A stretch of DNA of 43,681 nucleotides from Actinomycetales bacterium (GTDB lineage Bacteria; Actinomycetota; Actinomycetes; Actinomycetales; BWSM-131), in assembly GCA_030149025.1 (NCBI GenBank), contig JASBSH010000089.1, forward strand, positions 1 through 43,681, given 5' to 3'. Each line of letters begins with the position of its first letter. The stretch's first letter is position 1. The notes beneath the pieces were generated by a model. The model saw nothing but the letters and a program-made list of their open reading frames with translations. It ran no database searches and was not told where the DNA came from. Shown one piece after another: positions 16,261 to 39,238 of the stretch. Both the position numbers and the translations under genes were made by a program.

Positions 16261-16415
16261 GACGCTCTCCTCGCGCTAGACGCTGCGGCATACCGGCTGG
16301 TGCTGGACCCGAAGGGTAGTCTTGATCCCGCGAAGGAGTTCTCCAGCACGAACACGTGCGGCCGACTGTGCGGGAGGTGACCGGTTCGGGCGGCGGTGAC
16401 CCGGGAGGACGGCGA

Positions 16416-17204
16416 ATGGCGGCGAAGTCGAGCTCGGTTCCCGCCGCGCGCAACGCCCTGGAGCTCCTGCAGGCCCTGGCTCGGGAGGCGGGCCCGGTGC
16501 CGGCGGCGACGCTGGCTCGCAACGTCGGCCTACCGCGCTCGACCACCTATCACCTGCTGGCCGAGCTGGAGCGGGCGGGGTTCGTCGTCCACCTGCCCGA
16601 GCAGCGGCGCTGGGGGCTGGGTGTCAGCGCGTTCGAGCTCGGGTCCGCCTACTCCCGACAGGCCCCGCTGGCCCGGCTCGCCGCGCCCGCCCTCGCCCGA
16701 CTCGTCGACACTCTGGGCCAGAGCGCCCATCTCGCGGTCCTGCACGGCCGCGAGGTGCTCTATGTCATCGAGGAGCGCGCGCCCGGCCGCCCACCGCTGG
16801 TGACCGACGTCGGGGTGCGCCTGCCCGCACAGCTCACCGCCAGCGGCCGCGCGCTCCTCGCCGACCTGCCCGCTCCCCAGGTGCGTGCCCTGTTCCCCGA
16901 CTCCAACGCGTTCGTGGAACGCCACGGACTCGGACCCCGTTCGCTGTCCACCCTGCGGCGGTTGCTCGTGGACGTGCGGCGGCGCGGGTACGCGATCGAA
17001 GACGGTGAGATCACACCGGGTTTCGCCTCAGTGGCGGTCAGCGTCCCGGACCACACCGGCTACCCGGTCGCGGCGGTCGCTGTCACTTTCGAGGACAGCG
17101 ACCTGGACGACGAGGGACGTGCCCATGCCGCGAAACAGGCTGGGCGCGTAGCGGACAACCTGTCAGCGAGGATCGGTGGGGCGCGTCGCCAACCACGCTC
17201 GTGA
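16416..17204 (+). CDS. IclR-family transcriptional regulator
   Basis: ATG 16416 is preceded by GGGAGGA. N-terminal wHTH (ALELLQALA..PRSTTYHLLAELERAGFV) and a C-terminal IclR effector domain (GYAIEDGEITPGFASVAV). Divergent from the methyltransferase. Confidence 0.85.
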   Translation: MAAKSSSVPAARNALELLQALAREAGPVPAATLARNVGLPRSTTYHLLAELERAGFVVHLPEQRRWGLGVSAFELGSAYSRQAPLARLAAPALARLVDTLGQSAHLAVLHGREVLYVIEERAPGRPPLVTDVGVRLPAQLTASGRALLADLPAPQVRALFPDSNAFVERHGLGPRSLSTLRRLLVDVRRRGYAIEDGEITPGFASVAVSVPDHTGYPVAAVAVTFEDSDLDDEGRAHAAKQAGRVADNLSARIGGARRQPRS

Positions 17205-17211
17205 CGGGCGC

Positions 17212-17273
17212 GTGCAGAACTGCATGATCACGGAATGAGGGTTGGGCCGGCGTGCAGAGTTGCATGATCACGC
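17212..17273 (+). repeat. orphan dimer of the 22-bp repeat family (copies F 17212-17233 and G 17252-17273)
   Basis: GTGCAGAACTGCATGATCACGG and GTGCAGAGTTGCATGATCACGC match the 37-38 kb core at 19/22 and 17/22. Start-to-start spacing is 40 bp. The dimer fills the convergent IclR/selD spacer. Confidence 0.8.
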
Positions 17274-17286
17274 GATGGGTGGGTGG

Positions 17287-18336
17287 TCAGCGCACCGTCA
17301 GGACCGCGTCCCGGCGCGCGACCAGCTCGCCGACCACCGGCGCCCCCGGTACCTCCCCGGCCACGAGCAGACCGCCGGACGTCTGCGCGTCGGCGAGGAG
17401 CAGCAGCTCGTCCTCGCCCGCCCCTGAGTCGAGGTGCGGCCTGACCCACTCCAGGTTCCGCCGGGTACCCCCGCTGACGTAACCGTCCCGCAGAGCCTGC
17501 CTGGCGCCGTCCAGATAGGGAACGGCAGCGCTGTCCACGACGGCCGAGACACCGCTGGCACGAGCGAGCTTGTACAGGTGCCCGAGCAGCCCGAACCCGG
17601 TCACGTCGGTCGCACACCGGACGCCGGCCCGCAGCGCCGCACGCGAGGCCTCGGCGTTGAGGGTGGTCATGACGTCGATGGCCTGGTCGAAGCGCTCACC
17701 GGTGGACTTGTGCCGGCTGTTGAGGACGCCGATGCCGAGCGGTTTCGTTAGCGACAAGGGCGTGCCGGGTCGGCCGGCGTCGTTGCGCAGCAACGCATCT
17801 GCGTCCGCGATGCCGGTGACCGCCATGCCGTACTTCGGCTCCGGGTCGTCGACGCTGTGGCCCCCGGCGACGTGGCAGCCGGCCCGCCGGGCGACGTCGA
17901 GTCCGCCGCGCAGCACCTCGGTGGCCATCTCGCTCGGCAGGACGTCCCGGGGCCAGCACAGCAGGTTGACCGCCACGAGCGGCTCCCCGCCCATCGCGTA
18001 CACGTCGGACAGGGCGTTCGCGGCGGCGATCCGCCCCCAGTCGTAGGGGTCGTCGACCACCGGGGTGAAGAAGTCGGCGGTCGCGATGACCGCGCGGGAG
18101 CCGTCCACGCGCACTGCGGCGGCGTCGTCCCCGTCGTCGAGCCCGACCAGCAGCTCACCGGCGCCTCCTGGTCCCGCGGGCATCGGCAACCCACCGACCA
18201 GGCCGGCGACCATCTCCTCCAGCTCCCCCGGCGGGATCTTGCAGGCGCACCCGCCCCCGTGCGCGTAGGACGTGAGCCGGCGAAGACCTTCCTCCGGCTC
18301 AGGCTGCCTATCCGTGCCGAGAACCTCCGTCGCCAT
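17287..18336 (-). CDS. selD: selenide, water dikinase
   Basis: 349 aa. N-terminal SYAHGGGCACKIPPGELEEM is the SelD active-site loop in its Cys form, with no in-frame TGA. AIR-synthase-like fold. Confidence 0.9.
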   Translation of the reverse strand: MATEVLGTDRQPEPEEGLRRLTSYAHGGGCACKIPPGELEEMVAGLVGGLPMPAGPGGAGELLVGLDDGDDAAAVRVDGSRAVIATADFFTPVVDDPYDWGRIAAANALSDVYAMGGEPLVAVNLLCWPRDVLPSEMATEVLRGGLDVARRAGCHVAGGHSVDDPEPKYGMAVTGIADADALLRNDAGRPGTPLSLTKPLGIGVLNSRHKSTGERFDQAIDVMTTLNAEASRAALRAGVRCATDVTGFGLLGHLYKLARASGVSAVVDSAAVPYLDGARQALRDGYVSGGTRRNLEWVRPHLDSGAGEDELLLLADAQTSGGLLVAGEVPGAPVVGELVARRDAVLTVR

Positions 18337-18383
18337 GGCCCGACCCTAGACGCATAGGCTGCGGGGCGCGGCCCACGGGCCGT

Positions 18384-18476
18384 GGAGGCGTCAGGGCACC
18401 TGGTGGTCCCCGCGGTCTTCAAAACCGACGAGACCGAGTACCTCGGTCTGGCGGGTTCGATTCCCGTCCGCCTCCG
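18384..18476 (+). tRNA. selC: tRNA-Sec (anticodon UCA)
   Basis: Acceptor GGAGGCG pairs with CGCCTCC. The anticodon loop CUUCAAA is closed by CGGU/ACCG. A long variable arm AGACCGAG-UAC-CUCGGUCU gives 8 bp. T arm GCGGG-TTCGATT-CCCGT. No CCA is encoded. Located between selD and selA. Confidence 0.85.
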
Positions 18477-36158: not shown

Positions 36159-37079
36159 GTGAGGACCTGCGCGGCCTCCGACTGGACCGTCAAGGAACTG
36201 CTCGCAGCGAAGACGGCGGGCGGGCACACCGTGAGCCTGGTGCTGCCGGCGCGCAACGAGCAGGCGACGGTCGGACGCGTGGTCGCTGCGTTGCTCCCGT
36301 TGGTCGACGCGGGTCTCGTTGACGACCTGGTCGTCATCGACAGTCTCTCGGACGACGACACGCAGGCCGCGGCGTCGGCCGCCGGCGCCCGGGTGGTCAC
36401 CTGCGCAGACGCGCTGCCGGAGCTGGAGCCGTTGCAGGGCAAGGGAGAAGCGATGTGGCGGTCGCTGTTCGCGACCTCCGGCGATGTCGTGGCCTTCTGC
36501 GACGCCGACCTCCTGGACGCCGGGCCGCACTACGGCATCGGCCTGCTGGGACCGTTGCTGACCGAGCCGGATACGTTGCTGGTCAAGGGTTTCTACGACC
36601 GGCCCCTGGTTGACGACCGGGGGTCACTCACCGGCTACGGAGGTCGCGTCACCGAGCTGGTCGCCCGACCCTTGCTCAACCTGCACTGGCCTGAGCTGTC
36701 CGGGTTGGTGCAGCCGTTGGCGGGTGAGTGGGCGGGGCGTCGGTCACTGCTGGAGTCCCTGCCGTTCCCGGTCGGGTACGGCGTCGAGATCGCGGTGCTG
36801 CTGGACACGTTGGCAAAGCACGGTTCTCAGGTGATCACGCAGGTTGACCTCGGTCGGCGGACCCACTTGCAGCAGTCCGAGGACGCTCTCGGCGTGATGG
36901 CCGCCGAGGTGATGGCCACGGCCCTGAGGCGCTTGGACGTAGCCGTCACCGGAAAGACGCTGACGCAGTTCATCACCGACGCGGTGGGGCGCCGCGAGGT
37001 GACGACCCCGGTGCCGATGCTGGAGCGTCCCCCGGCCGCCACCTTTCACCACCCCATGCCCCACAACCCCATCCCGTGA
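36159..37079 (+). CDS. gpgS: glucosyl-3-phosphoglycerate synthase
   Basis: 306 aa, collinear with my recollection of M. tuberculosis GpgS (SLVLPARNEQATV, GKGEAMWRS, GGRVTELVARPLL, PGYGVEI-type segments). The C-terminal tail and stop codon lie inside repeat copy A. Confidence 0.85.
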   Translation: MRTCAASDWTVKELLAAKTAGGHTVSLVLPARNEQATVGRVVAALLPLVDAGLVDDLVVIDSLSDDDTQAAASAAGARVVTCADALPELEPLQGKGEAMWRSLFATSGDVVAFCDADLLDAGPHYGIGLLGPLLTEPDTLLVKGFYDRPLVDDRGSLTGYGGRVTELVARPLLNLHWPELSGLVQPLAGEWAGRRSLLESLPFPVGYGVEIAVLLDTLAKHGSQVITQVDLGRRTHLQQSEDALGVMAAEVMATALRRLDVAVTGKTLTQFITDAVGRREVTTPVPMLERPPAATFHHPMPHNPIP

Positions 37080-37172
37080 TCTTGCACTTCTGCAGACACC
37101 CCTCTTCCTCGTGATCTTGCACTTCTGCAGCCCCACTGTTCCCCACTCCTCCGTGATCTTGCACTTCTGCAG
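37074..37172 (-). repeat. array of three 22-bp repeats (A 37074-37095, B 37109-37130, C 37151-37172), motif on the minus strand
   Basis: The plus strand reads CCGTGATCTTGCACTTCTGCAG at A and C, and TCGTGATCTTGCACTTCTGCAG at B. Each core is followed, in motif orientation, by a G-rich tract. Start-to-start spacings are 35 and 42 bp. Confidence 0.9.
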
Positions 37173-37227
37173 GAGCGGCTGTGGATGAGCACCGCGGGGG
37201 ACCCCACTCCTCCTGGATGCTTGCCGG

Positions 37228-38136
37228 ATGGCGATTCCCCCCTTCACGAGCCGCGAACTGGAGGATGTCGGTCTCACGCGTCACCATCTCGCCAGCGCGG
37301 TGGACGCCGGGGAGATCGAGCGGCCGTTCAGGGGCGTCTACATTCCCAGCGGCGAAAGCGGCGACGTACGTGCCAGGGCCGCAGCGCTTGCCCGGGTCCT
37401 GCCTCCGGGCGCGGCCATCGCTCGCACGGCGGCGGCATGGCTTCACGGTTTTGATGTCCGCACACCCGGCGCTCATGACAAGCCACCGCCGTTGGAGGTC
37501 GTGGTCCCGGCTGGGACGACGCCACCACGGCGGCCCGGTGTCGTCGCCTATGCCGCCCGCCTCCCGCCGGAGGATGTCGCGAACATCGGCGGCGTCCCAG
37601 TCACCACCATCGAGCGAACCGCGTTGGACGTCTCCCGCTACTGCCCACCGTTCATGGCTCTGGCGGGACTGGACGCGATGGCAAGAGCGGGCGTCGTCCA
37701 GCCTGACATCCTCTTGAAACGAATCGAGGAGTGGCGCGGTGAGCGCAATGTCGCGAGCGCCCGTCGCCTGATCCTTCTGTGCGATCCGCGAAGTGAGTCG
37801 GCTGGAGAGTCCTGGACCCGTCTACGGGTGGCCGATGCGGGGTTCCCGACTCCCGACCTGCAGATCTGGGTCCCCAGCGACACGGAACGGGTCTACCGCC
37901 TGGACATGGGTTGGCGCAAGCGCCGGATCGGTATCGAGTACGACGGTCTCGAGTTCCACGGCAGCTCTGAGCAGTTCCTCCACGACGTGCGCCGCCGGGA
38001 ACGGCTGGCGCGAGAGTTCGGCTGGCAGGTCATCGGAGTGCACCGCGGGCACGTGCTCGGCCGTTCGCTCGATTTCGAGCGAGGCGTCGGTGAACTGCTG
38101 GGGATGACGCCTTCGATCACGCGCAGGCGCTGGTGA
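37228..38136 (+). CDS. AbiEi_4-like wHTH N-domain fused to a DUF559 / Vsr-like endonuclease-fold C-domain
   Basis: 302 aa. The N-terminus PFTSRELEDVGLTRHHLASAVDAGEIERPFRGVYIP is AbiEi-antitoxin-like. The C-terminus IGIEYDGLEFHGSSEQFLHDVRRRERLAREFGWQVIGV is DUF559-like. No AbiEii-type partner is adjacent. Confidence 0.8.
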   Translation: MAIPPFTSRELEDVGLTRHHLASAVDAGEIERPFRGVYIPSGESGDVRARAAALARVLPPGAAIARTAAAWLHGFDVRTPGAHDKPPPLEVVVPAGTTPPRRPGVVAYAARLPPEDVANIGGVPVTTIERTALDVSRYCPPFMALAGLDAMARAGVVQPDILLKRIEEWRGERNVASARRLILLCDPRSESAGESWTRLRVADAGFPTPDLQIWVPSDTERVYRLDMGWRKRRIGIEYDGLEFHGSSEQFLHDVRRRERLAREFGWQVIGVHRGHVLGRSLDFERGVGELLGMTPSITRRRW

Positions 38137-38143
38137 CCGACGT

Positions 38144-38205
38144 CTGCAGAAGTGCAAGATCACGGCGGTTAAGGGTGCGCCCCCTGCGCAAGTGCAAGAT
38201 CACGA
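38144..38205 (+). repeat. dimer of the 22-bp repeat (D 38144-38165, E 38184-38205), inverted relative to copies A-C
   Basis: D reads CTGCAGAAGTGCAAGATCACGG, the exact reverse complement of A and C. E reads CTGCGCAAGTGCAAGATCACGA (19/22). Spacing is 40 bp. The dimer fills the convergent spacer between 38136 and 38216. Confidence 0.9.
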
Positions 38206-38215
38206 CATGAGGGGC

Positions 38216-39238
38216 TCACAGGTCGTAGCGGTCGACGATGAACCCGTCGGAGTCGAGCAGAATCCCGTCCGTCGCCTCAACCACGGCCGAGGCGACGAGA
38301 CCGATGGCGGTGGACGCGACGCTCCGTGCGGCCAGGTGCTCGCTGTTCGGGTGCTCCATCCAGAGCTGGTCCTCCTCCGGCGGGTTCCAGTGAACCTCGT
38401 AGGTAACGACCTGCTCGGCCCACTCCAACCCCGCCAGCGCCGGCACCTTCTCCTCCTGGCCGTAGACCACCACGTCGAGGGTGCCGTACCGCGCGTTGGG
38501 GCCGAGGTCGGCGACGATGCCGTAGCCGTCGACCGCGTCGCCCTCCGCCAGCGCCTCGGCGTCGAACTGGTCGGCCCGTGCGTGCAGGACCGCCCGCTCC
38601 TCGACGGTCAGCTCCAGACTCACCTCGTCCGGTGGCTGGTCGATGATGCCGACCGGCGGCCCGGCCCACTCGGCGGCGTCCAGCGCCAACCGTGCCTGCG
38701 GCTCGTGCTGCTGCACCACGCCCAGGAGGGTCTGCGGGTCCAGCCAGTACGGCGAGTGCACCACCAGGTCGACGCGGGCGGACGGGTCCGGCCGCAGGAC
38801 CACACCCGACCCGGCGATCCGGACGGCGCCACCCAGGCGACGGGCCACGGCCAGCAGGAGGTTCACGGACCGGGCCTCCGCGCGGGTGGGCATCCCGTCC
38901 CGGAAGGCGCGGAACAGTCCGTCCGGGTCGGACGTGCCGGGCATCGGCGGGTCCTCCCGCTCCACCGGAGCACGCAGCGTGTAGGCGAGCGGCCACCCGG
39001 CCGGCGCGTCCACGCGGGCGGCTGTGCCGTCGTCCATGACGATCGGCCCCACCAGGGTGGTGTGCCGCCCGAACCGGATGGCGCCGTCCGGGTCCCACGT
39101 GGACTCCGGGTGCCTCGTGACGACGAGTGCCTCGACGTCCTGCGCCTCGGTCCCCTCAGGCAGCAGGAGCATGTGCTGCGCACGCAGCTCGTTCGGGTCG
39201 AACGACGAGGCGTCGAAGGATCGTGCCGGGTCAACCAT
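38216..39238 (-). CDS. hypothetical acidic protein (340 aa)
   Basis: Long ORF with coding-like codon bias, 16 nt downstream of dcd on the same strand. No signal peptide, TM segment or recognisable motif. Confidence 0.7.
   Translation of the reverse strand: MVDPARSFDASSFDPNELRAQHMLLLPEGTEAQDVEALVVTRHPESTWDPDGAIRFGRHTTLVGPIVMDDGTAARVDAPAGWPLAYTLRAPVEREDPPMPGTSDPDGLFRAFRDGMPTRAEARSVNLLLAVARRLGGAVRIAGSGVVLRPDPSARVDLVVHSPYWLDPQTLLGVVQQHEPQARLALDAAEWAGPPVGIIDQPPDEVSLELTVEERAVLHARADQFDAEALAEGDAVDGYGIVADLGPNARYGTLDVVVYGQEEKVPALAGLEWAEQVVTYEVHWNPPEEDQLWMEHPNSEHLAARSVASTAIGLVASAVVEATDGILLDSDGFIVDRYDL

What the first reader, a model, noticed from the sequence alone, without database searches (positions are those of the whole stretch)
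37074..38205. AbiEi-wHTH/DUF559 nuclease-fold gene bracketed by inverted multi-copy arrays of a near-perfect 22-bp motif
Seen directly:
- Three copies of CCGTGATCTTGCACTTCTGCAG lie 56-154 bp upstream of the ATG: A 37074, B 37109, C 37151.
- Two copies of the reverse complement CTGCAGAAGTGCAAGATCACGG lie 8-70 bp downstream of the stop: D 38144, E 38184.
- A, C and D are identical at 22/22, B matches at 21/22 and E at 19/22.
- In motif orientation each core is followed by a G-rich tract.
- The only gene between the arrays is a single ORF combining an AbiEi-type wHTH with a DUF559/Vsr-like endonuclease fold. No AbiEii toxin partner is present.

Established knowledge: AbiEi antitoxins autoregulate by binding paired repeats of about 23 bp in their own promoter. 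The upstream triplet is therefore a plausible cognate operator.

The inverted copies beyond the stop codon are not explained by autoregulation. Three possibilities, all inference:
(a) Terminal inverted repeats with several internal protein-binding sites, so the roughly 1.13 kb unit would be a selfish, homing or mobile cassette whose nuclease-fold protein recognises its own ends.
(b) A DNA-looping operator pair.
(c) A perfect 22-bp duplex between the 5' UTR (C) and the 3' UTR (D) of the mRNA.

I do not know of a described system with this architecture.
Basis: partly seen in the sequence, partly recalled or inferred. Interest (0 to 1): 0.8.

Follow-up and report, generated by a model that had tools for sequence, protein, structure and literature searches.

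The report
Nuclease gene bracketed by its own repeats
A gene for a DNA-binding nuclease lies between mirror-image arrays of a 22-bp repeat, and this layout, with a different repeat in each clade, marks a large and apparently undescribed actinobacterial gene family that resembles REP/RAYT repeat systems but uses an unrelated enzyme.

Summary

The motif is not private to this gene:
- A variant pair lies at 17212-17273 in the window.
- The 12-bp core TGCAWGATCACG forms more than 113 tandem-array loci in Kineosporiaceae and Streptosporangiaceae genomes.
- Most of these are gene-less "<<< >>>" palindromic arrays that fold as hairpins.

The gene association is nevertheless real and general:
- Of 67 homologues (34-53% identity) with both flanks, 50 have an inverted flank match of at least 12 nt. 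Displaced control windows give 3 of 84.
- The repeat sequence changes with the protein clade.
- Array periods are mostly 21-22, 32, 44 or 53 bp, which are whole helical turns.
- 66 of 72 loci carry a DnaA-box-like CTGTGGAYRA at a fixed distance upstream of the start codon.

The protein models confidently as an AbiEi fold plus a Vsr-like nuclease, and the catalytic residues are conserved.

Best reading: the repeats are iteron-like binding sites of the encoded protein. The whole is a resident nuclease-repeat system that works like REPIN/RAYT with an unrelated enzyme. An RNA duplex is unlikely. No published description was found. The mechanism is inferred.

The parts
37060..37172 (+). Upstream array: three tandem units, each a C-rich tract followed by the 22-mer CCGTGATCTTGCACTTCTGCAG. 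Copies A 37074-37095, B 37109-37130 and C 37151-37172; start-to-start spacing 35 and 42 bp. The TGA stop of the upstream gpgS-like gene (37077-37079) lies inside copy A.
37179..37188 (+). DnaA-box-like element CTGTGGATGA (reverse complement TCATCCACAG), with TGTGGA starting 48 bp before the ATG. The same box sits at a fixed distance from the start codon in 66 of 72 family loci.
37228..38136 (+). Gene for a 302-aa protein with three parts: an AbiEi-type winged helix (about residues 1-60), an AbiEi C-terminal domain (about 67-175) and a Vsr/DUF559-like PD-(D/E)XK nuclease (about 190-302). Conserved residues are E194, D226, E237, D239, H244 and D253.
38144..38215 (-). Downstream array: two units in inverted orientation, D 38144-38165 (22/22) and E 38184-38205 (19/22), spacing 40 bp, each followed by a G-rich tract. 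The array ends at the stop codon of the convergent 340-aa gene (38216).
17212..17273 (+). Gene-less pair of variant units of the same repeat family: GTGCAGAACTGCATGATCACGG at 17212-17233 and GTGCAGAGTTGCATGATCACGC at 17252-17273, spacing 40 bp, each followed by a G-rich tract. The pair lies between the convergent IclR-like gene and selD. Its sequence equals the flank repeat of the 69%-identical homologue in L209.

Best explanation
The 22-bp units are iteron-like double-stranded DNA binding sites of the protein encoded between them. One AbiEi-type winged-helix module binds per unit. The units are set on one face of the helix, in opposite polarity on the two sides of the gene.

Gene plus arrays form a compact, resident chromosomal module that is mostly inherited vertically. 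The protein's specificity and the repeat sequence co-diversify.

In the lineage that uses the core TGCAWGATCACG, which includes this window, the same units have also spread through intergenic DNA. There they form gene-less, hairpin-forming inverted arrays. The relation of gene to repeats is therefore that of a RAYT gene to its REP/REPIN population, although the enzyme is an unrelated wHTH-Vsr-type nuclease.

Inferred mechanism:
- The protein loads cooperatively on the arrays.
- The upstream array, together with the conserved promoter-proximal box, sets its own expression.
- The conserved nuclease centre nicks or cuts at or beside bound arrays.
- Repair, slippage or gene conversion then maintains, expands and occasionally copies the arrays.

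Shown here: the anatomy, the family-wide conservation, the co-variation, the dispersal and the fold. Inferred: binding, cleavage and propagation.
For: 1. Not chance, and exact.

2. A family hallmark. 50 of 67 homologue loci have an exact inverted match of at least 12 nt between their 250-bp flanks, and 34 of 67 have at least 15 nt. Controls: 2 of 67 in direct orientation, 22 of 333 for non-cognate flank pairs, and 3 of 84 for windows displaced along the same loci, none of which reaches 15 nt.

3. The repeat sequence differs between clades and follows the protein tree. Examples are GATCWTGCA, GATCAAGGAA, GTTGAGTTGG and CGCGAAGTGG.

4. The 12-bp core survives between proteins only 41% identical that belong to different orders: the window versus Planotetraspora L039, Sphaerimonospora L203 and Microbispora L204.

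5. Site geometry:
- The unit is 21-22 bp. Each genome conserves about 20-21 nt.
- This matches the 23-bp sites bound by AbiEi and Rv2827c monomers (PMC7319586).
- Array periods are 22 (52 flanks), 21 (12), 32 (6), 44 (2) and 53 (2), and 31-32 / 41-42 / 52-53 in the dispersed arrays. These are whole helical turns.

6. Dispersal:
- More than 113 8-kb blocks from about 25 genomes carry tandem cores.
- 85 junctions are '- then +', against about 9 short '+ then -' junctions.
- Gene-less elements fold as perfect hairpins, z = -8.6 and -9.6.

7. Of 10 single-gene inserts inside such arrays, 3 are this gene family, and they come from three genera.

8. Genome-specific repeat variants are shared by gene flanks and dispersed copies.

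9. The closest relatives of the Planotetraspora protein are in Microbispora, Sphaerimonospora and Actinomadura alba. These are the genera that carry the dispersed arrays.

10. The nuclease motif is conserved: E237 and D239 are invariant and D226, H244 and D253 invariant or nearly so across 29-50 sequences. The fold is modelled with confidence.

11. Vertical residence:
- The P450 neighbour is conserved between Microbispora and Sphaerimonospora.
- Elements sit at orthologous sites in Planotetraspora species with different copy numbers.
- There are no phage hits, and the only 'plasmid' hits are megareplicons.
Against: - No binding or cleavage was tested.
- Dispersal is shown only for the TGCAWGATCACG lineage. 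For about 15 loci of other clades, no further cognate copies occur within the 4-7 kb flanks available. The REPIN-like part may therefore not be general.
- The window holds one gene-less site in 43.7 kb. That site matches the repeat of a 69% homologue (L209) better than the window gene's own repeat.
- The two arms can diverge from each other (L197, about 15/22).
- 11 flanks have an 18-bp period, which is not a whole number of helical turns.
- A hydrolytic PD-(D/E)XK nuclease has no known way to paste DNA.
- Ordinary genes also occur between inverted arrays, so bracketing as such is not unique to this gene.
- The DnaA-box-like element is not explained by the model.
Confidence: 0.45

Rival explanations
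1. Operator and looping only. The arrays are autoregulatory operators. Protein bound upstream and downstream closes a loop of about 1 kb over its own gene and keeps a potentially self-toxic nuclease tightly repressed or parked in cis. The nuclease has a host function elsewhere, such as defence or repair. The dispersed arrays are extra regulatory or titration sites, or by-products.
For: - AbiEi and Rv2827c autoregulate through two to four 23-bp repeats, with cooperativity and DNA bending (PMC7319586).
- The arrays are phased on the helix.
- In most clades the repeats are seen only next to the gene.
- The gene is chromosomal, syntenic and vertically inherited.
- The AbiEi fold is retained in full.
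Against: - The upstream array lies outside the promoter-proximal 55-110 bp rather than over it.
- Looping does not explain dozens of gene-less palindromic arrays per genome, nor their strict '- then +' polarity.
- The arms can diverge.
- Nothing here ties the protein to defence: there is no partner gene, and PADLOC hits only AbiEi models.
Confidence: 0.25
2. Autonomous mobile cassette. The roughly 1.14-kb unit (array-gene-array) moves as a whole, by transposition or homing. The arrays are multi-site terminal inverted repeats, as at Tn7 or Mu ends. Gene-less arrays are MITE-like derivatives or excision footprints, and arrays around other genes are cargo-carrying relatives.
For: - The unit fills exactly the space between the stop codons of two convergent genes.
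- The interval between the 340-aa gene and gpgS holds other genes in Thalassiella. A 90%-identical relative has urease genes instead.
- The 69% homologue lies in a different context.
- Single ordinary genes sit inside '- ... +' arrays seven times, against one '+ gene -' case.
- Many homologues are on contigs of 1.0-1.5 kb, as expected if assemblies break in flanking repeats.
Against: - No exact empty site or target-site duplication was found.
- No multi-copy identical units were seen.
- Synteny is conserved across genera, and the repeat changes gradually at what look like orthologous positions.
- The family is absent from phages and true plasmids.
- No strand-transfer chemistry is known for Vsr-type nucleases (own knowledge).
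Confidence: 0.15
3. Replication-linked element. Iteron-like arrays of opposite polarity plus DnaA boxes act on replication. They could form a polar fork barrier of the Tus/Ter or RTP type, or a DnaA-dependent local initiation or unwinding site, with the winged-helix protein as the contrahelicase or initiator.
For: - The iterons are about 22 bp long and phased on the helix.
- A DnaA-box-like TYRTCCACA sits at a fixed position in 66 of 72 loci.
- The two arrays have opposite polarity.
- From my own knowledge: RTP is a winged-helix protein, and the tus and rtp genes lie next to Ter sites.
Against: - Hundreds of dispersed sites would be incompatible with a terminus trap.
- There is no similarity to Rep_3, Tus or RTP in Pfam or Foldseek.
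- The box is tied to the gene start rather than to the arrays, and is absent from gene-less arrays.
Confidence: 0.06
4. RNA-level function. Copies C and D, or the arrays as a whole, pair in a transcript and circularise or stabilise the mRNA. Alternatively the arrays are simply terminators.
For: - C and D are perfectly complementary over 22-25 nt.
- Gene-less elements are strong hairpins between convergent genes and could terminate transcription.
Against: - The window arrays do not fold on their own (z = -1.7), and no terminator-like site is found.
- The conserved box, and presumably the promoter, lies between the upstream array and the ATG, so the upstream array is probably not in the mRNA.
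- The periods follow the DNA helical repeat.
- In the 53-bp units the spacers are not conserved.
- The arms diverge in L197.
- No Rfam family matches.
Confidence: 0.04
5. Coincidence. A generic REP-like repeat of these genomes happens to lie on both sides of this gene.
For: - The repeat is dispersed.
- Other genes are also bracketed.
Against: - 75% of 67 homologues from many clades are bracketed, each by its own repeat, against 3 of 84 control windows.
- The same family is the insert in 3 of 10 cases, in three genera.
Confidence: 0.02

Closest known systems
REP/REPIN sequences and their RAYT (REP-associated tyrosine transposase) genes (PMC3116915, PMC3337134, PMC5581495)
   Same: - A largely vertically inherited gene is flanked by inverted copies of a short repeat. 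Copy number per genome was not counted here.
- The same repeat is dispersed in extragenic DNA, often between convergent genes.
- The dispersed form is an inverted pair that folds as a hairpin.
- Each gene clade has its own repeat sequence.
- Positions are conserved between related species.
   Different: - The protein is a winged-helix plus Vsr-type PD-(D/E)XK nuclease. It is not an HUH/Y1 (IS200/IS605-like) transposase.
- The repeats form tandem, helically phased arrays of 2-7 units. This points to double-stranded DNA binding rather than recognition of single-stranded hairpins.
- Dispersal is shown for only one lineage of the family.
- A DnaA-box-like promoter element is present.
AbiE type IV toxin-antitoxin system: AbiEi antitoxin of S. 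agalactiae and Rv2827c of M. tuberculosis (PMC7319586; PDB 6y8q)
   Same: - The N-terminal wHTH and C-terminal AbiEi domains are homologous (Pfam, PADLOC, Foldseek E = 1e-5).
- The repeats of about 22-23 bp lie beside the protein's own gene.
- Several sites are present per locus.
   Different: - There is no AbiEii (DUF1814) toxin gene.
- A nuclease domain is fused instead.
- The repeats are tandem and direct on each side, and are mirrored beyond the stop codon, rather than being inverted pairs inside the promoter.
- The repeats are also dispersed genome-wide.
Vsr / DUF559 endonucleases and the EDxHD homing endonuclease I-Bth0305I (PDB 1cw0, 1vsr, 3r3p)
   Same: The C-terminal domain has the Vsr-like fold and an (E/V)xDGxxxH-type motif. 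As in I-Bth0305I, the catalytic domain is joined to a separate DNA-recognition module.
   Different: - No Dcm methyltransferase neighbour was seen among the adjacent genes.
- The gene is not inside an intron or intein.
- It is flanked by arrays of its presumed recognition sites.
Iteron-controlled plasmid replicons (Rep protein, about 22-bp iterons, DnaA boxes); from my own knowledge
   Same: - Tandem direct repeats of about 22 bp are phased on the helix.
- They lie next to the gene of a winged-helix protein.
- An inversely oriented set and DnaA-box-like sequences lie nearby.
   Different: - The context is chromosomal and among housekeeping genes.
- There is no Rep_3-type protein and no AT-rich unwinding region.
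- The arrays lie on both sides of the gene.
- The protein carries a nuclease.
Tn7 ends and TnsA; from my own knowledge
   Same: Several 22-bp protein-binding sites lie in each of two inverted ends. A restriction-enzyme-fold (PD-(D/E)XK) nuclease takes part in cutting.
   Different: - There is no DDE transposase (TnsB) and no TnsC, TnsD or TnsE.
- A single small gene is present.
- No target duplication was seen.

Membership tests
AbiE type IV toxin-antitoxin system | Two-domain AbiEi antitoxin: an N-terminal wHTH and a C-terminal antitoxicity domain | tested here: met
   - Pfam AbiEi_4 and AbiEi_1 score above their cut-offs.
- 11 PADLOC AbiEi models are hit.
- Foldseek matches 6y8q with E = 1e-5 over about 190 residues.
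AbiE type IV toxin-antitoxin system | An adjacent AbiEii (DUF1814 nucleotidyltransferase) toxin gene in the same operon | tested here: not met
   - The neighbours are a GT2/gpgS-like gene and a 340-aa protein with no Pfam hit.
- tblastn with an AbiEii sequence finds nothing in the window (best E = 1.7).
- None of the homologue loci inspected has an AbiEii gene directly adjacent. In L207 one lies about 4 kb away, next to a different HTH gene.
AbiE type IV toxin-antitoxin system | Negative autoregulation by binding inverted 23-bp repeats inside the promoter | not testable with these tools
   Repeats of the right size exist. They are tandem, lie upstream of the promoter-proximal region, and are mirrored downstream of the gene.
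REP/REPIN-RAYT system | The gene is flanked by inverted copies of the repeat | tested here: met
   The window and 50 of 67 homologue loci.
REP/REPIN-RAYT system | The same repeat is dispersed many times in extragenic DNA of the same genome | tested here: inconclusive
- Gene and dispersed arrays occur in the same genome in P. thailandica, Sphaerimonospora and Angustibacter.
- For the window genome only 43.7 kb is available, with one other site, and that site is a variant.
- Not seen for other clades within 4-7 kb.
REP/REPIN-RAYT system | The dispersed unit is an inverted pair that forms a hairpin (REPIN) | tested here: met
   Gene-less elements fold with z = -8.6 and -9.6. There are 85 '- then +' junctions.
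REP/REPIN-RAYT system | The protein is an HUH/Y1 transposase of the IS200/IS605 type | tested here: not met
   Pfam, NCBIfam and Foldseek give AbiEi and Vsr-like folds only. It is therefore not a member; the resemblance is in how it works.
Vsr / DUF559 (PD-(D/E)XK) endonucleases | Vsr-like fold with a conserved acidic/His catalytic motif | tested here: met
   - Foldseek matches 3r3p (probability 0.95), 1vsr (0.72) and 1cw0 (0.66).
- A profile search of PDB sequences aligns EYDGxEFH with 3r3p.
- E237 and D239 are invariant; D226, H244 and D253 are invariant or nearly so.
- The Pfam MTES_1575 hit is below the gathering score for the window protein. Hits to this family are on record for many homologues.
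Vsr / DUF559 (PD-(D/E)XK) endonucleases | Very-short-patch repair role: pairing with a C5-cytosine methyltransferase and T:G mismatch nicking | not tested
   Only the adjacent genes were examined, and neither is a methyltransferase. Activity cannot be tested here.
Iteron-type replicon | Rep initiator of the Rep_3 / WH1-WH2 type on an extrachromosomal replicon | tested here: not met
   - No Rep family is hit.
- The context is chromosomal housekeeping genes.
- Only 2 'plasmid' hits were found, both on megareplicons.
Iteron-type replicon | Tandem iterons of about 22 bp plus DnaA box(es) | tested here: met
   At the sequence level only: periods of 21-22 bp in 64 of 100 flanks that have a tandem repeat, and a TYRTCCACA-like box in 66 of 72 loci.
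Homing endonuclease gene (free-standing) | Presence/absence polymorphism at an otherwise conserved site with exact boundaries | tested here: inconclusive
   Relatives have other genes in the interval between the 340-aa gene and gpgS, or a different neighbour altogether. No exact empty site was found.

The most novel reading that the evidence does not exclude
A new class of bacterial nuclease-repeat system. The family has thousands of actinobacterial members, now annotated as 'AbiEi antitoxin', 'DUF559' or 'hypothetical'. In it, a winged-helix-Vsr nuclease co-evolves with its own iteron-like repeat. The protein is bracketed by that repeat and, in some lineages, spreads it through the genome as palindromic arrays. 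It would be a functional analogue of RAYT/REPIN built from unrelated parts, possibly coupled to DnaA.
Probability: 0.35. Interest if true: 0.9.

Novelty: new variant of a known kind. Interest (0 to 1): 0.8.

Why it matters
- REP/REPIN elements with their RAYT genes are so far the one well-described case of a short repeat family kept in bacterial genomes by a resident, vertically inherited enzyme. A second, independently built case in Actinobacteria would show that this arrangement is a recurrent evolutionary solution and not a peculiarity of HUH transposases.
- It would give a first testable function to a very large set of genes labelled DUF559 or 'AbiEi antitoxin'. The family comprises 3373 clusters at 50% identity with E <= 1e-10.
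- It would explain a class of intergenic tandem or palindromic repeats that break assemblies of actinomycete genomes.
- Many natural protein/DNA-site pairs, each clade with its own motif of about 21 bp, would offer a ready-made system for studying how winged-helix specificity evolves. They might also serve as programmable DNA-binding nucleases.
- The fixed DnaA-box-like element hints at a link between such elements and replication control.

Tried and rejected
- **Rfam scan of the whole window**. Only tRNA-Sec and a partial tRNA were found, so no known RNA family covers the repeats.
- **Promoter/terminator consensus scan of 36800-38500**. Nothing was found, so the promoter could not be placed.
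- **Folding of the window arrays as single strands**. The result was not significant.
- **Exact empty-site test** through homologues of the neighbouring 340-aa gene. Synteny beyond that gene is not kept, so no exact empty site could be defined.
- **Exact-protein look-ups of P0034 and P0044.** These returned nothing, so multi-copy occurrence of identical genes could not be checked.
- **Idea that the TGTGGA box is the generic AbiEi operator.** The box is absent from the published AbiEi and Rv2827c probe sequences.
- **Idea that dispersal is general to the family.** It is not supported for clades other than type A within the flanks available.
- **CRISPR-like array.** Rejected because the units of 21-53 bp have no repeat/spacer structure of CRISPR size and no cas genes are near.
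- **Literature searches.** Terms used were DUF559, RAYT/REPIN with Actinobacteria, AbiEi with Vsr or repeats, REP in Streptomyces or Micromonospora, the motif strings themselves, and AbiEi with flanking repeats. No description turned up.

Full report
**1. The observation**

- The 22-mer CCGTGATCTTGCACTTCTGCAG lies at 37074, 37109 (1 mismatch) and 37151 on the + strand.
- Its reverse complement lies at 38144 (0 mismatches) and 38184 (3 mismatches).
- No match occurs in 100 dinucleotide-preserving shuffles (sequence; repeat geometry).
- The only ORF between the arrays that has database support is 37228-38136 (+), 302 aa.

- Pfam finds AbiEi_4 and AbiEi_1 above threshold, plus a sub-threshold REase_MTES_1575 match.
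- PADLOC finds only AbiEi models.
- NCBIfam finds nothing.
- An AlphaFold2 model built on 50 homologues is confident (pLDDT 93.7, pTM 0.90).
- Foldseek matches its first ~190 residues to the S. agalactiae AbiEi structure 6y8q (E = 1e-5). It matches the C-terminal domain to the I-Bth0305I homing-endonuclease catalytic domain and to Vsr. A PDB profile search gives the same weak 3r3p match.
- Across 29-50 homologues E237 and D239 are invariant, and D226, H244 and D253 are invariant or nearly so. The nuclease centre is therefore under selection.
- No AbiEii partner is present.

The unit fills the whole space between two convergent genes. The TGA of the upstream gpgS-like gene lies inside copy A. 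The G-rich tract after copy E abuts the stop codon of the 340-aa gene.

**2. The motif is not private to this gene**

A relaxed search finds two more tandem units at 17212-17273, between an IclR-like gene and selD.

I scanned one genome per species for two cores TGCAWGATCACG separated by 18-40 bp.
- The blocks come from Kineosporiaceae MAGs, Angustibacter, Kineosporia, seven Planotetraspora genomes, Sphaerimonospora, Microbispora, Actinomadura and others.
- With the core written as '+', neighbouring copies form '- - - + + +'. There are 85 '- then +' junctions, mostly 13-300 bp apart, against about 9 short '+ then -' junctions.
- Same-strand spacings cluster at 30-33, 41-42 and 52-53 bp.
- The gene-less elements are long perfect palindromes with extra tandem copies outside. 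They often lie directly between the stop codons of convergent genes.
- They fold as hairpins with z = -8.6 and -9.6. The window's own arrays do not fold (z = -1.7).
- In Planotetraspora species they occupy orthologous positions (76-96% DNA identity in the flanks) with different copy numbers.

**3. The association with the gene is real and general**

Among ten '- ... +' junctions that enclose a single gene (700-1600 bp), three enclose a homologue of the window protein:
- the window itself;
- Angustibacter L111 (49% identity);
- Planotetraspora thailandica L039 (41% identity).

A metagenome scan with a family alignment gave 80 further homologue loci at 34-53% identity. Reading their flanks shows a tandem array upstream and its reverse complement downstream in nearly every case.

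| Comparison (250-bp flanks) | Exact inverted match ≥12 nt | ≥15 nt |
|---|---|---|
| True gene positions, inverted orientation | 50 of 67 | 34 of 67 |
| Same flanks, direct orientation | 2 of 67 | – |
| Non-cognate flank pairs | 22 of 333 | – |
| Windows displaced along the same loci | 3 of 84 | 0 of 84 |

The repeat sequence is different in different clades and follows the protein tree. Examples:
- CGTGATCWTGCA
- CGTGATCATGG
- GATCAAGGAA...
- CCGATCATGCAAACCGG
- GTTGAGTTGGCCCTCCGGG
- CGCGAAGTGGCGC
- GAAGTTCGCCTGATGGGGA
- GGGGCGGATCGCC
- GACCGTTGAACGGCGCC

Other points on the family:
- The 12-bp core of the window's type is kept between proteins that are only 41% identical and belong to different orders. 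Sphaerimonospora and Microbispora show the same layout with three units on each side at a 53-bp period.
- Each genome conserves about 20-21 nt per unit: 8-9 genome-specific bases plus the core.
- Gene flanks and dispersed copies of one genome share the genome-specific variant.
- The closest relatives of the Planotetraspora protein are found in the very genera that carry the dispersed arrays.
- The family is large: 3373 clusters at 50% identity with E <= 1e-10.
- It has no phage hit and only two 'plasmid' hits, both on megareplicons.
- Many members lie on contigs of 1.0-1.5 kb, as expected if assemblies break in the flanking repeats.

**4. Properties that point to the level of action**

- TRF on 162 flanks finds tandem repeats in 100. 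The periods are 22 bp (52 flanks), 21 (12), 18 (11), 32 (6), 44 (2) and 53 (2). Apart from the 18-bp class these are whole numbers of helical turns, as are the 31-32, 41-42 and 52-53 bp periods of the dispersed arrays.
- The unit size equals the 23-bp sites that single AbiEi or Rv2827c monomers bind (PMC7319586).
- In the 53-bp units only the ~21-nt site is conserved, not the spacer.
- In L197 each arm is internally homogeneous but the arms are only ~15/22 alike.

Together these favour recognition of double-stranded DNA by a protein over an RNA duplex.

A second conserved element was found between the upstream array and the start codon.
- 66 of 72 loci carry TGTGGA/TCCACA there, against a background of 0.07 per 200 bp.
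- The positions are fixed: -48 in one orientation, -58 and -85 in the other.
- The consensus is cCTGTGGAYRAc, whose reverse complement GTYRTCCACAGg matches the actinobacterial DnaA box TTGTCCACA / TTATCCACA (the box consensus is from my own knowledge).
- In the window it is CTGTGGATGA at 37179-37188.
- It is absent from gene-less arrays and from published AbiEi operator probes.
- What reads it is unknown.

**5. Mobility versus residence**

- Microbispora and Sphaerimonospora orthologues (57% identical to the Planotetraspora protein) both follow the same P450 gene.
- A group of metagenome homologues shares one downstream neighbour, judged from near-identical downstream sequence, while the repeat changes gradually.

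This argues for long vertical residence.

On the other side:
- The interval between the 340-aa gene and gpgS holds three other genes in Thalassiella.
- A 90%-identical relative of the 340-aa gene is followed by urease genes instead.
- The 69% homologue P0002, from the same metagenome as that relative, lies next to an AhpC/NHL gene. It is flanked by GTGCAGAAC-TGCATGATCACG. That is the sequence of the window's gene-less pair at 17.2 kb, not of the window gene's own flanks.

No exact empty site or target duplication was found. Outside the TGCAWGATCACG lineage, no additional cognate copies occur within the 4-7 kb flanks of about 15 loci.

**6. Interpretation**

The best-supported model has these steps.
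- The units are iteron-like binding sites of the encoded protein.
- Protein and repeat co-diversify.
- The gene with its arrays is a compact resident module.
- In the window's lineage the repeat has also spread as gene-less palindromic arrays.

The relation of gene to repeat therefore works like RAYT to REP/REPIN (PMC3116915, PMC3337134, PMC5581495). It is not a member of that family, because the defining HUH transposase is absent. It is not an AbiE toxin-antitoxin system either, because the toxin is absent. Binding, autoregulation, cleavage at arrays and repair-driven propagation are all inferences.

The rivals I weighed are:
- an operator/looping function only;
- an autonomous cassette with multi-site inverted ends;
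- a replication-linked role suggested by iterons plus DnaA boxes;
- an RNA duplex;
- coincidence.

The last two are largely excluded.

**7. Novelty**

Searches of the open-access literature and bioRxiv found no description of repeat-bracketed AbiEi/DUF559 genes or of this repeat. Subscription-only papers were not searchable, so prior description cannot be ruled out.

I rate it a new variant of a known kind: a repeat family with a cognate resident enzyme, built from unrelated components. Interest is high because the pattern covers a very large, functionally unassigned gene family and is directly testable.

Noticed in passing
window 37179-37188; family loci L116-L209: A DnaA-box-like CTGTGGAYRA (reverse complement TYRTCCACAG) lies at fixed distances from the start codon: -48, or -58 and -85. 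It occurs in 66 of 72 loci of the family, against a background of 0.07 per 200 bp. It is absent from gene-less arrays and from published AbiEi operator probes. What reads it is unknown.
   Followed up: partly
window 17212-17273: A gene-less tandem pair of a variant of the repeat lies between the convergent IclR-like gene (16356-17204) and selD (17287-18336). Its sequence matches the flank repeat of the 69%-identical homologue in L209 rather than the window gene's own repeat. This hints at two gene/repeat subfamilies.
   Followed up: partly
window 17287-18475: A selenium-utilisation locus: selD (selenophosphate synthetase-like ORF, minus strand) is followed directly by a tRNA-Sec gene at 18384-18475 (Rfam 72.7 bits).
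   Followed up: no
L035, L036, L038, L047, L054, L087 (Planotetraspora), L010: Ordinary single genes sit exactly between '- ... +' arrays. They include an ALDH, a GNAT, an ABC ATPase, a UbiA-like gene, a thiolase and an aldo-keto reductase. There are seven such cases, against one '+ gene -' case at comparable spacing. They look like cargo inside the elements.
   Followed up: partly
L038 (P. silvatica) versus L048 (P. thailandica): The same UbiA-like gene lies inside the inverted arrays in one species. In the other it lies beside a gene-less array, in opposite orientation. This is a rearrangement with breakpoints at the arrays.
   Followed up: partly
L197 9800-11200 and 16537-17424: The upstream array (CCCACGAAGTGCCGATCCGGAA, 5 copies) and the downstream array (TTCCCGATTGACAYCTCGCGGG, 6 copies) are each homogeneous. 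They are only ~15/22 alike when compared as an inverted pair. A second paralogue 6 kb away has the TGTGGA box but no arrays.
   Followed up: no
L124, L134, L196 (Micromonospora), L207 (Actinomadura alba): In some members the gene is flanked on each side by a complete palindromic pair, a REPIN-like hairpin, instead of a one-directional tandem array.
   Followed up: no
(contig lengths): A large share of homologues are on contigs of about 1.0-1.5 kb, and L209 ends inside the downstream array. This is consistent with assemblies breaking in the flanking repeats. The collection's median contig is also about 1 kb, so the evidence is weak.
   Followed up: no
window 37077-37079: The stop codon of the gpgS-like gene lies inside repeat copy A, and its last ~12 codons run through the element's C-rich tract. 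The Thalassiella orthologue (77% identical) ends at about the same position with an unrelated tail.
   Followed up: yes
L207 14387-15540: Actinomadura alba has a separate HTH_3 plus AbiEii gene pair about 4 kb from its AbiEi-Vsr gene. The pair is not adjacent and is probably unrelated.
   Followed up: no
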